Of a stretch of 64,000 bases of DNA, positions 31,914-34,183 are shown piece after piece. The stretch covers positions 32,142,084 through 32,206,083 of the forward strand of contig JAUZTB010000127.1 in assembly GCA_034780895.1 (NCBI GenBank), read 5' to 3'. How positions within the stretch are numbered: the first letter of the stretch is position 1; each line of letters opens with the position of its first letter. The stretch is from Rhynchobatus australiae (Eukaryota). The notes under the pieces are model-generated. The model was not told the DNA's origin. It saw only the letters and a list, made by a program, of their open reading frames with translations, and made no database searches. Both the position numbers and the translations under genes were made by a program.

Positions 31914-31919
31914 TTTATT
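31914..31919 (-). promoter_or_regulatory. Candidate polyadenylation signal (AATAAA) for the NEDD4L-like transcript
   Basis: tttatt on the + strand, about 120 nt 3' of the candidate stop. Confidence 0.3.
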
Positions 31920-32035
31920 AGTTGAGGATCCTGTATCACACAATACCTACTATTTTCTTTCTTCCACTGAATCATTCTAGTTAGCCTCTGATGACGACTG
32001 ATAACGTAGCAGATGATCACTAATTCAGGCAGACC

Positions 32036-32062
32036 TTACTGTTCACTGCCTTTCTTCATGGG
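32036..32062 (-). CDS. Candidate second/terminal exon of the NEDD4L-like unit (PMKKGSEQ*)
   Basis: Minus-strand acceptor tttttctcttttttttcttgctag|; phase 0 fits the 33008 donor; TAA at 32038-32036. A phase-2 donor ca|gtaagg overlaps the stop, so it could be an internal exon instead. Confidence 0.45.
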   Translation of the reverse strand, partial: PMKKGSEQ

Positions 32063-32328
32063 CTAGCAAGAAAAAAAAGAGAAAAAGTATTTGCAGCCAT
32101 AAATCTTTTGTGGATCAAAGCCAGCAGACAGAAAAATTAGTGTTTTCACTTGAGATAAATAAGGGAATGACACCTGCTACCAGACAACAAGTCACATCTG
32201 AAATGAATCATTCAGTAAACTCTCATGACGGGAATAATCTGTAAAAGTTTGTTGCTTGTAAATTCAGTGCTGACTTGAAGCAGTCAACTAATCCTCTTGC
32301 TTGTTTACACATTTCACAACCTTTTCAG

Positions 32329-32373
32329 TTTCTTCCACCGAACTTAAATACGAAGATTCAAATACGTCATGGG
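32329..32373 (+). CDS. Candidate 45-nt micro-exon of the + strand gene (xSSTELKYEDSNTSW if phase 1)
   Basis: Acceptor cttttcag| and donor ggg|gtaaaa; symmetric length, open frame; no homology support. Confidence 0.25.
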
Positions 32374-32971
32374 GTAAAAGTAGTCCACTAGTTAGCAGCT
32401 GTCTTTTTATACCATATTTCACTGTTGGGGAGTGTACAGACAGGCATTAAAGGCCAACATCTATTATTTCAAGCCGACTTTCACAGCTGGAGGCACACAG
32501 TGTAATCCACTAAACACAGCAGAGTCTTGTTTCGAAACACATCACTACAGCTCCTGCAACCTAAATCGGGCTTGTTCTTCTGACATACAAACCCCATAGT
32601 TGATTAAAATAAACTAGAACCCATTAACTATAGTGCTCTCAGCATTCTATTTTTTACCTTTACAACTCTGTTTATTTCAATTACTTTGAGCTGCTGTGCA
32701 GATTCTGGCAGTCAGCAGATACATAAAAATAAAACAGTATTTTGTTGAAGTAGAATCAACTGCAGAGATAAGAATGTGAGTCTATTAGGAAATTTAGTCT
32801 TTTAGGGTGGAGGGGAGAGATTGGGGGAAGGCACAAAGGAAATAGCAAGTGTAGATTAGTTTTACCAGCAGTAAGAAACATAGGCTAATCCTGGAAAGGC
32901 CAAATGGATTGGTGTTCCCCCCTCCACTTTTCCCAGCTCGAATTCTCAAAATAGAGCCCCATGCATCTAAC

Positions 32972-34183
32972 TTAATTGACAAGCATGGCTTTGAACTGTT
33001 CACATACCATGGAGTTCTCTCTGGTGACTGAATTCATTCTTCTTTGAACACAGCCACCATCGTCCTTCATTGAGCCTTCGGTTTTTTCTCCACGTCCTCG
33101 GGTTAAAAGAATTCGGACATGGGGTTGCCTCTGATTTTGCTCCTGTCTGATTTGAAATTTGCGGGACTGTGTCTGAGGTATTGTTTCCAATGAACTGCTA
33201 CGTAGCATTTCAGGACTGTTTTCCCTAAATGCTGTTCCTGCAACTTGCTCCCTGTCAGCCATGTCAAAACATTCAGTGTTTCCTTTAACTGGCAAGGAAG
33301 CAGAAGTGCTTCGTCCCAGCCGTATATGTGGGGACCTGGTCATATTTTCCCTCTTTGTGCTGGTTCGTCCAGTTTTTAAATTCATCCATGAATCATGCAA
33401 ACCTTCACGCTGTTGCTGAAGCTGCAAAATAAAGCAAGATTTCCCAACATTCCCCTGTATATCTGGCTGATGCTGTAAGGACCAGCGCCTGGTCACAGAA
33501 GCACGAGCTTTCTGATGCCCATTACGGTTAAAAGGCGAAAGGTGTAATTGATGCATGTCTCCTGTTGGTGAATGGCGGTGAATTCTGACACCCCCAACAT
33601 TTATACCAGAGGCAGATCCATTTGCTAATTCCTCTGGGCCAACTGCAGTTTGCTTCTGTTCCAAAGGAAAACGACAATGTATTCTACAATTAGATGAAGT
33701 ACTTCCACTGGTTTGTTGTGATGATTCAGCAGCCACACTATAGGGTGGGGGATCATCTGTACTTAGAGGCACACTTGGAAGAGAACAGCTTCTGGAAAAT
33801 AAACTATCACTGCTGCCAACTTCCATTCTCACGTCTGGTAACGGCTGCTCAGGACACTCTGAGACACTGGAATCACATCCATTCATTGGTTTGCGCTGCA
33901 GTGATATCTGCATTGATGAACTTCTGGTGGGTCGGGATTCATTACCGTGCAACTGAGGGACGAACATGGAGGAGCTTCGATTCAGGGAGGTCCGATCTTG
34001 TAAAGGTAATCCAGTATCACGGACAGGCTCAGAGATGTTCTGAACAGCATGAGGAACATTCCTTCTTGGTAAAGTGTTGAATGTCATGTAGACATCATTT
34101 TCTCTTTCTTCATCCAGCATCGCCAACTCTGGATCTGTGTTACTCCTATTTGATCCAAAATAAAGACGCAGTCGATGGGCCAT
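32972..34183 (-). CDS. NEDD4L: NEDD4L-like long alternative N-terminal exon (403-aa ORF; probable phase-0 donor after codon 392 at 33008)
   Basis: Colinear blocks match the recalled human NEDD4L long isoform: MAHRLRxxFGSxRSNTxPE, FxTLPRR, RSSSMFxPQL, SSSxQISLQRK, RRWSLQHxPD, GKxCFxxQLQQ, PxIRLxRSTS, FxIRQxQN, RILxTRG. It is by far the longest ORF in the window. Donor ATG|gtatgt at 33008/33007. Orthologue versus paralogue is unresolved. Confidence 0.85.
   Translation of the reverse strand: MAHRLRLYFGSNRSNTDPELAMLDEERENDVYMTFNTLPRRNVPHAVQNISEPVRDTGLPLQDRTSLNRSSSMFVPQLHGNESRPTRSSSMQISLQRKPMNGCDSSVSECPEQPLPDVRMEVGSSDSLFSRSCSLPSVPLSTDDPPPYSVAAESSQQTSGSTSSNCRIHCRFPLEQKQTAVGPEELANGSASGINVGGVRIHRHSPTGDMHQLHLSPFNRNGHQKARASVTRRWSLQHQPDIQGNVGKSCFILQLQQQREGLHDSWMNLKTGRTSTKRENMTRSPHIRLGRSTSASLPVKGNTECFDMADREQVAGTAFRENSPEMLRSSSLETIPQTQSRKFQIRQEQNQRQPHVRILLTRGRGEKTEGSMKDDGGCVQRRMNSVTRENSMVCEQFKAMLVN

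What the first reader, a model, noticed from the sequence alone, without database searches (positions are those of the whole stretch)
31914..34183. NEDD4L long N-terminal exon nested antisense in a DUF4795 gene, possibly a stand-alone ligase-less gene
Seen: an intact 1176-nt coding exon (392 codons to a phase-0 donor) on the minus strand, between + strand exons at 29130 and 37724. About 950 nt downstream are a strong acceptor giving PMKKGSEQ* and an AATAAA, which would yield a roughly 400-aa protein; the unspliced read also stops after 403 aa. Known (recalled): its motif blocks match the long N-terminal isoform of NEDD4L, which normally splices on to C2, WW and HECT exons. In human, NEDD4L (chr18) is unlinked to C16orf96 (chr16) and QRICH2 (chr17). 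I could not find C2/WW/HECT exons in the 32 kb downstream by eye. Inference: this is (a) a duplicated or relocated exon now acting as its own HECT-less gene, (b) true NEDD4L hosting the DUF4795 gene antisense in its introns, or (c) a scaffolding error.
Basis: partly seen in the sequence, partly recalled or inferred. Interest (0 to 1): 0.8.

Follow-up and report, generated by a model that had tools for sequence, protein, structure and literature searches.

The report
Misassembled NEDD4L exon, not nested gene
A genuine first exon of the ubiquitin-ligase gene NEDD4L sits inside an unrelated gene in this ray genome assembly, but its conserved upstream sequence and the rest of NEDD4L lie on another scaffold beside a gap, so the nesting is likely an assembly error rather than a new gene.

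Summary
The 1176-nt exon is real: it is the single-copy long alternative first exon of NEDD4L (84% identical to Narcine). Its placement is very likely an assembly chimera. (1) The other NEDD4L exons lie in order on scaffold C64. (2) The exon's conserved 5' flank is also on C64 and ends exactly at an N gap in the intron where the exon belongs. (4) The host C16orf96-like gene lacks a conserved exon here and is out of frame without it. The PMKKGSEQ* exon and AATAAA are host-intron DNA read backwards. Against: the C64 gap is sized 716 N, while at least 2.2 kb is needed, and no raw reads were laid on the join. Verdict: not a real feature (about 0.92). Side result: this exon is homologous to the 'primate-specific' Nedd4-1(NE) exon, and both 14-3-3 sites align between the paralogues.

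The parts
33008..34183 (-). NEDD4L long alternative first coding exon (392 codons, phase-0 GT donor); true home inferred to be the gap at G000:C64:29146672-29147387
   Evidence: single copy in the genome
34184..34204 (-). 21-nt stub of 5' leader; the rest of the 5' flank is on C64
   Evidence: aligns with the leader of the paralogous NEDD4 exon; the upstream element is found on C64 and not at 34305-35304
32088..33007 (-). first 920 nt of the NEDD4L intron that follows the long exon
   Evidence: runs X1 and X2 carry it on contigs that leave the window at 32068/32072; single copy
32068..32087 (.). 20-bp A-rich tract shared by both loci = inferred false join; on the minus strand it is the 'acceptor' pyrimidine tract
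   Evidence: host-side contigs X3 rec 19 and X4 rec 24 stop matching at 32087; NEDD4L-side contigs X1 rec 4 and X2 rec 12 stop matching at 32068/32072; the exact 20-mer occurs once in the assembly
31914..32067 (-). apparent terminal exon (PMKKGSEQ*, 32062-32036) and AATAAA (31919-31914): host-intron DNA read on the opposite strand
   Evidence: lies within 31624-32087, which X3 and X4 carry on contigs that continue into non-NEDD4L sequence; chance-level signals
34205..34304 (.). 100-N placeholder gap at the second edge of the foreign piece
   Evidence: 5 of 9 100-N gaps in the window have 9-19 bp duplicated across them; X3 rec 20 and X4 rec 25 have 600 and 657 unlike letters before 34314
28981..29130 (+). 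host C16orf96-like (DUF4795) exon with CGGSHT motif, phase-0 donor (start is the alignment start)
37724..37810 (+). next host exon present in the assembly, phase-1 acceptor; the exon that should lie between (about residues 598-629 of P0150, GxDGxxYKG) is absent
29236..29245 (.). 10-N gap that is bridged in relatives, so not the site of the error
   Evidence: X3 rec 16 spans 28142-29405 and X4 rec 22 spans 28142-29485

Best explanation
The exon is the ray's single ordinary NEDD4L long first exon, and its position inside the C16orf96-like gene is likely an assembly chimera, probably made by joining two loci through a shared 20-bp A-rich tract at 32068-32087. Shown: the exon's identity and single copy; the rest of NEDD4L and the exon's conserved 5' flank on C64 next to a gap; independent contigs diverging at the tract; a missing host exon. 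Inferred: the assembler extended the host-intron contig through the tract into the NEDD4L intron and exon, dropped the two other halves (at least 1.7 kb of host DNA with one exon, and the onward NEDD4L intron), and closed the right side with a 100-N placeholder. In the animal the exon would be transcribed from an internal promoter in the C2-coding region of NEDD4L and spliced to the TRDDF exon, giving a roughly 1260-aa ligase with WW and HECT domains but no complete C2 domain (inferred from orthologues).
For: Single copy: 2 matches in the genome, itself and the NEDD4 paralogue on C74. 11 collinear plus-strand NEDD4L matches on C64:29.226-29.313 Mb, plus the DPYVK, NPKWNE, DENRL and TRDDF exons, with no long exon in the 65-kb DENRL-TRDDF intron, which has 25 gaps. 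The paralogue on C74 has its long exon in that same slot. 5' flank: the paralogue's leader aligns to C64 up to the gap edge 29146671 (score 62, best of 109 gap-edge segments, mean 28, sd 4.5). A distant NEDD4L-type contig, L082, aligns there with score 91 (best of 1094 tiles, next 55, mean 27, sd 5.4), again ending at the gap edge, and scores 25 against window 34305-35304. X3 rec 19 and X4 rec 24 match 31624-32087, then run on 1116 and 1089 unlike letters; X1 rec 4 (no differences from the window) and X2 rec 12 match the NEDD4L intron but have 14 and 28 unlike letters beyond 32068/32072; none of the 28 records listed spans the join. The host exon motif is present in 54 of 67 homologues with CGGxHT, was not found in window or genome, and the frame needs it. 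The exon has a short branch (0.046; Narcine 0.13, Leucoraja 0.14), as expected of a working orthologue.
Against: The C64 gap is sized 716 N, but at least about 2.25 kb is needed (2137 nt plus about 107 nt of leader). Table 8 lists only 28 records (274,895 more rows not shown), so a spanning contig could be hidden; all four runs are contigs, not raw reads. The unlike ends in X1 and X2 are short (14 and 28 letters) and their letters were not shown. X3 and X4 are other species (about 91-95% identical), so they show the ancestral state, not this animal's. Neither dropped half was found in the assembly. The two NEDD4-type contigs L083 and L084 did not match the C64 element (scores 32 and 31). Twenty bases is shorter than the word length of many assemblers (general knowledge), so the join needs a short-overlap or gap-filling step that I could not identify.
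Confidence: 0.92

Rival explanations
1. A real, private rearrangement in the sequenced animal or its lineage: a promoterless 2.1-kb piece of NEDD4L was moved by microhomology-mediated repair into the host intron, deleting a host exon and leaving a shorter hole on C64. It would damage both genes and create no working new gene.
For: The C64 gap (716 N) is too small for the piece. A 20-bp shared tract also fits microhomology-mediated joining (general knowledge). The join lies inside gap-free sequence.
Against: X1, identical to the window in all 8 listed records, has a contig that runs from the NEDD4L intron through the tract into other letters. It needs loss of a conserved exon from two genes, yet the exon shows no decay. 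The other edge is an N gap.
Confidence: 0.05
2. One reading: a duplicated or relocated exon that now works as a stand-alone, roughly 400-aa HECT-less gene, antisense within the host intron, ending in PMKKGSEQ* and AATAAA.
For: The frame, donor, acceptor-like site and AATAAA are all present. Databases hold about 400-aa stand-alone versions from other vertebrates (28 hits).
Against: There is no second copy. The conserved 5' element is not upstream in the window. The terminal exon is host DNA beyond the break. In the 23-row alignment (22 of the 28 short hits) homology ends at the donor and the tails are unrelated, which marks gene-caller read-through; one such hit, P0005, clusters with a 939-aa NEDD4L isoform.
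Confidence: 0.015
3. A plain scaffolding error: the whole gap-bounded contig 29246-34204 was placed in the wrong scaffold.
For: The contig has N gaps on both sides.
Against: X3 rec 16 and X4 rec 22 bridge the left gap, and X3 rec 19 and X4 rec 24 do not continue into NEDD4L at 32087.
Confidence: 0.01
4. One reading: the true NEDD4L gene lies here on the minus strand and hosts the DUF4795 gene in its introns.
For: None beyond the exon itself.
Against: All other NEDD4L exons found are on C64. The HECT-like matches on C127 are 5.5 Mb away and only 48-63% identical.
Confidence: 0.005

Closest known systems
NEDD4L (NEDD4-2) long N-terminal isoforms in RefSeq/UniRef gene models of sharks, rays and bony vertebrates
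   Same: Same exon: 84% identity to Narcine, 82% to Leucoraja; same donor position, VTRENS(M/V) then TRDDF; groups with batoids at 100/100 support.
   Different: In this assembly it is detached from its 5' flank and downstream exons. Its splicing here was not observed.
NEDD4L C2-minus isoforms from alternative promoters (PMC2678989, passages read)
   Same: Internal promoters give NEDD4L proteins without a full C2 domain. Pfam finds WW and HECT but no C2 in the Narcine long isoform.
   Different: The passages seen describe start codons downstream of C2 and do not mention a 390-codon first exon.
Human Nedd4-1(NE) (PMC10589272, passages and one supplement passage; PMC11920435, passages)
   Same: One long exon replaces most of C2 and joins at TRDDF (chimp P0349: residue 517). 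The window exon scores E 9.5e-20 against a NEDD4-NE profile. Thr16 and Ser458, the reported 14-3-3 sites, align with Thr16 and an R-S-x-S site of the window exon.
   Different: That is the paralogue NEDD4 (here on C74), 32% identical to the window exon. [quoted passage not shown]
Mis-joins in short-read vertebrate assemblies (bioRxiv 10.1101/2020.05.22.110833, passages read)
   Same: It reports about 5,000-8,000 mis-joins per short-read assembly, including chimeric joins, and platypus VTG2 pieces wrongly placed in an intron of Calpain-13.
   Different: The join here is inside a contig and can be placed within 20 bp.

Membership tests
NEDD4L long alternative first exon | Orthology with annotated NEDD4L long isoforms, not NEDD4 | tested here: met
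   84% to Narcine NEDD4L; 32% to the C74 NEDD4 exon; tree places it among batoid NEDD4L
NEDD4L long alternative first exon | Phase-0 donor where orthologues splice to the TRDDF exon | tested here: met
   donor after 33008; 113 of 120 long homologues continue with TRDDF; TRDDF exon with AG acceptor at C64:29196453
NEDD4L long alternative first exon | Located in the intron between the DENRL and TRDDF exons | tested here: inconclusive
   not there as assembled, but its conserved 5' flank is, ending at a gap; the gap is sized smaller than needed
NEDD4L long alternative first exon | Transcribed and spliced to WW/HECT exons in this species | not testable with these tools
   no RNA reads were laid
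Nested antisense stand-alone gene | Own promoter upstream at this locus | tested here: not met
   conserved 5' element scores 24-25 (background) against window 34305-35304, and 62-91 on C64
Nested antisense stand-alone gene | Terminal exon physically linked to the coding exon in independent data | tested here: not met
   contigs from 4 of 4 runs diverge at 32068-32087; none listed spans it (the table is truncated)
Nested antisense stand-alone gene | Intact host gene around it | tested here: not met
   conserved host exon not found and frame broken between 29130 and 37724
Duplicated exon or retrocopy | Parent copy retained elsewhere in the genome | tested here: not met
   one copy only; the assembly is gappy, so a collapsed copy is not fully excluded
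Duplicated exon or retrocopy | Intron loss, sense-strand poly(A) tail, target-site duplication | tested here: not met
   920 nt of intron retained; the tract is T-rich on the sense strand; no flanking direct repeat among the 20 of 25 families shown; the right edge is a gap
Assembly mis-join (chimeric contig) | Independent assemblies part at one short shared repeat | tested here: met
   breaks at 32068, 32072, 32087 and 32087
Assembly mis-join (chimeric contig) | Gap at the donor locus and sequence missing at the recipient locus | tested here: met
   gap at C64:29146672; at least about 1.7 kb of host DNA absent (1116+600-30 in X3, 1089+657-30 in X4)
Assembly mis-join (chimeric contig) | No raw reads of the source animal span the join | not testable with these tools
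   the four runs laid are kept as contigs only

The most novel reading that the evidence does not exclude
The join is real in this ray: microhomology-mediated repair cut the long first exon out of NEDD4L, pasted it antisense into the C16orf96-like gene in place of a host exon, and it picked up a cryptic terminal exon, giving a new ligase-less, 14-3-3-binding protein of about 400 aa while both parent genes lost an exon.
Probability: 0.03. Interest if true: 0.6.

Novelty: not a real feature. Interest (0 to 1): 0.1.

Why it matters
As a finding it matters little: it flags one local assembly error that breaks two gene models (the NEDD4L long isoform on C64 and the C16orf96-like gene on C127) and would mislead annotation. 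It also shows that a gap-free contig is no proof of a nested gene. If the join were real, it would be a rare case of an exon leaving its gene and living alone. The more useful by-product is evolutionary. The long C2-replacing exon, called primate-specific for NEDD4 in print, is present in both NEDD4 and NEDD4L of this ray, in the same intron, with a shared upstream element and both 14-3-3 sites aligned. That points to an origin before the NEDD4/NEDD4L duplication and predicts an untested NEDD4L counterpart of Nedd4-1(NE). Public gene models already contain these isoforms, and the paper's own supplement lists NE homologues in rodents, chicken and frog, so the addition is modest.

Tried and rejected
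Whole-contig misplacement was my first guess from the gap map; I dropped it. I looked for an exact overlap between the piece's ends and C64 contig ends: the longest matches were 14 bp and at background places. I looked for the two dropped halves by DNA and pattern searches and with up to 3 mismatches in the window and 160 kb of C64: none found; the one extra hit, on C70, is a 17-mer and was fetched but not examined. The paralogue's downstream intron showed no convincing match to C64 (best E 0.047). The missing host exon was not found with a whole protein, a 42-aa piece or a degenerate pattern; the tool warns that a blank in an incomplete genome is not absence. No RNA holder was listed: no evidence either way. 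The low depth of X3 and X4 over the exon was not used, because the tool filters human-like records. Retrocopy was rejected (intron kept, wrong-strand tract). My first motif count (19 of 120) came from a faulty pattern and was redone (115 of 120; the 5 misses are N-terminally truncated models). Chimp NE scores only weakly against the NEDD4L profile (E 0.13 at database scale; pairwise BLAST E 1.5e-6 over 98 aa), so the paralogue link rests mainly on the NEDD4 profile and the ray NEDD4 exon. dN/dS was not computed (no orthologous DNA in hand), and synteny against a long-read ray genome was not examined. Earlier findings of this scan: none returned. Paper searches (listings only) showed no paper on a long NEDD4L first exon or on this locus; the library lacks most subscription journals.

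Full report
Observation. The window is G000:C127:32142084-32206083 in a 2.2-Gb assembly of 81,522 pieces. It holds 18 N gaps. On the minus strand there is an ATG at 34183, an open frame of 403 aa, a GT donor after 33008 (1176 nt, 392 codons), an acceptor-like site at 32062 reading PMKKGSEQ*, and AATAAA at 31919. So the letters are as described. The ATG is only 21 nt from a 100-N gap at 34205-34304. The acceptor-plus-AATAAA signal is weak: 16 such acceptor-like sites occur on this strand of the window, 3 of them with AATAAA within 200 nt.

What the exon is. Among longer proteins, 216 homologues were found and the best 120 listed; the top ones are NEDD4L long isoforms of Narcine (84%) and Leucoraja (82%). 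Of the 120, 113 continue directly into TRDDF, the middle of the C2 domain, and Pfam finds WW and HECT but no C2 in the Narcine protein. In a 15-row tree the exon groups with batoids (100/100) on a short branch, 0.046 against 0.13 for Narcine and 0.14 for Leucoraja; only the two Mobula rows and Hemitrygon have shorter end branches. It looks like a working orthologue, not a decaying copy. The 28 short stand-alone hits do not support a 400-aa gene family: in an alignment of 22 of them with the query, homology ends at the donor and the tails are unrelated.

Where the rest of NEDD4L is. The exon is single-copy; the only other match is the paralogous NEDD4 exon on C74. A search with the full Narcine protein gave 37 matches, 11 of them collinear plus-strand NEDD4L exons on C64:29.226-29.313 Mb (which used a stricter first look). 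In 160 kb fetched from C64 the DPYVK, NPKWNE, DENRL and TRDDF exons lie in order. The 65-kb intron between DENRL (29131411) and TRDDF (29196453) has 25 gaps and no long exon. In the paralogue on C74 the long exon sits in exactly that intron.

The empty slot. The leader of the paralogous exon matches C64:29146617-29146664 (82% over 49 nt, E 9.5e-6), and the alignment runs to the edge of a 716-N gap at 29146671, which corresponds to 130 nt before the paralogue's ATG. It is the best of 109 gap-edge segments (62 against a mean of 28, sd 4.5). A metagenome scan gave 3 loci. The NEDD4L-type one, L082 (likely a bony fish), aligns to the same spot with score 91, best of 1094 tiles (next 55), again ending at the gap edge. 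The element contains a CCAAT sequence, so it is likely part of the promoter. It is not found upstream of the exon in the window (score 25). The two NEDD4-type loci did not match (32 and 31).

The break. Contigs of 4 of the 15 listed public runs were laid on 26000-38000. X3 and X4 (other species, about 91-95% identical) bridge the 10-N gap at 29236-29245, so the left part of the contig is true host DNA. Their records 19 and 24 match 31624-32087 and then continue for 1116 and 1089 letters unlike the window. Their records 20 and 25 have 600 and 657 unlike letters before 34314. From the other side, X1 (no differences from the window in its 8 listed records) and X2 (about 98%) follow the NEDD4L intron down to 32068 and 32072 and then have 14 and 28 unlike letters. 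All four breaks fall on one 20-bp A-rich tract, 32068-32087, which on the minus strand is the pyrimidine tract of the supposed acceptor. The AG, PMKKGSEQ* and AATAAA lie on the host side. Limits: only 28 records are listed, these are contigs and not reads, and the loose letters of X1 and X2 are few and were not shown.

The host. The plus-strand gene is a DUF4795, C16orf96-like gene, with exons mapped across the window. Between the exons ending at 29130 and starting at 37724, the catshark protein has about 32 more residues with a GxDGxxYKG motif, present in 54 of 67 homologues that have the preceding CGGxHT motif. That exon was not found in the window, in the C64 stretch or in the genome, and the splice phases (0 and 1) need it. 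So the NEDD4L piece stands where at least about 1.7 kb of host DNA is missing.

Mechanism. Most likely (0.92) the assembler ran from the host intron through the shared tract into the NEDD4L intron, and the two other halves were dropped. This fits the tract occurring once in the assembly and the 100-N gaps being placeholders (5 of 9 in the window have duplicated edges). This step is inferred. The strongest point against it is that the C64 gap is sized 716 N while about 2.25 kb is needed; I could not test how accurate sized gaps are. A real private rearrangement (0.05) remains possible until raw reads are mapped. A working stand-alone gene (0.015), a wholly misplaced contig (0.01) and NEDD4L hosting the DUF4795 gene (0.005) are contradicted by the points above. 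Mis-joins of this kind are common in short-read assemblies (bioRxiv 10.1101/2020.05.22.110833, passages).

Comparison with what is known, and a side result. NEDD4L is known to make C2-minus isoforms from alternative promoters (PMC2678989, passages). [quoted passage not shown] The first paper's supplement lists homologues in chimp, rat, mouse, chicken and frog and none in zebrafish (passage; the figure itself was not seen). Here the ray NEDD4 exon finds 356 longer homologues, including chimp NEDD4 (E 2.8e-45) and shark, paddlefish, gar and bowfin models. The window exon scores E 9.5e-20 against a profile of NEDD4 NE regions. The Thr16 motif is present in 115 of 120 NEDD4L and 120 of 120 NEDD4 long models, and Ser458 aligns with a serine in 12 of 13 panel rows (one further row was dropped for lack of TRDDF). 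The exon and its upstream element therefore likely predate the NEDD4/NEDD4L split. The direct chimp-to-NEDD4L signal is weak, and expression outside humans was not tested here.

Verdict. The exon is ordinary and known from gene models; the nesting and the ligase-less gene are very likely not real. Interest 0.10, mostly for the side result.

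Noticed in passing
window 33008-34183 (-) and L002:1501-2745 (G000:C74:28294824, +): The long C2-replacing first exon is present and open in both NEDD4 and NEDD4L of this ray, in the same intron, homologous to each other and to chimp Nedd4-1(NE). 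The reported 14-3-3 sites Thr16 and Ser458 align in both paralogues. [quoted passage not shown]
   Followed up: partly
G000:C64:29146553-29146671 (L039); L082:129-256; L002:1300-1370: A noncoding element of about 120 nt containing CCAAT, conserved between ray NEDD4L, a distant NEDD4L-type contig and, more weakly, ray NEDD4: a candidate ancient internal promoter for the long isoforms.
   Followed up: partly
window 29131-37723 (+): The C16orf96-like gene lacks its GxDGxxYKG exon in this assembly, so any gene model built here will be frameshifted or truncated.
   Followed up: yes
window 30384-30575: A 95-nt inverted repeat (91% complementary, 2-nt spacer) made of two copies of a very abundant interspersed repeat.
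   Followed up: no
window 32068-32084 and 34353-34369: The junction tract has an 88% complementary 17-nt partner just right of the 100-N gap; low complexity, probably chance.
   Followed up: no
window 43447-54570 (+): Two similar short host exons at 43447 and 45782 both match the same C-terminal part of the catshark protein (QQR/QHR...SNICRC), suggesting a tandem exon duplication or alternative exons.
   Followed up: no
window 2037, 11686, 19563, 28042, 54632: 100-N gaps with 9-19 bp duplicated on both sides, i.e. no real gap; the one at 28042 is closed in run X2.
   Followed up: yes
G000:C62:267434-267826 (L070): A second match to the N-terminus of the C16orf96-like protein inside a 2105-aa open frame, probably the paralogue of the QRICH2 type (name recalled, not tested).
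   Followed up: no
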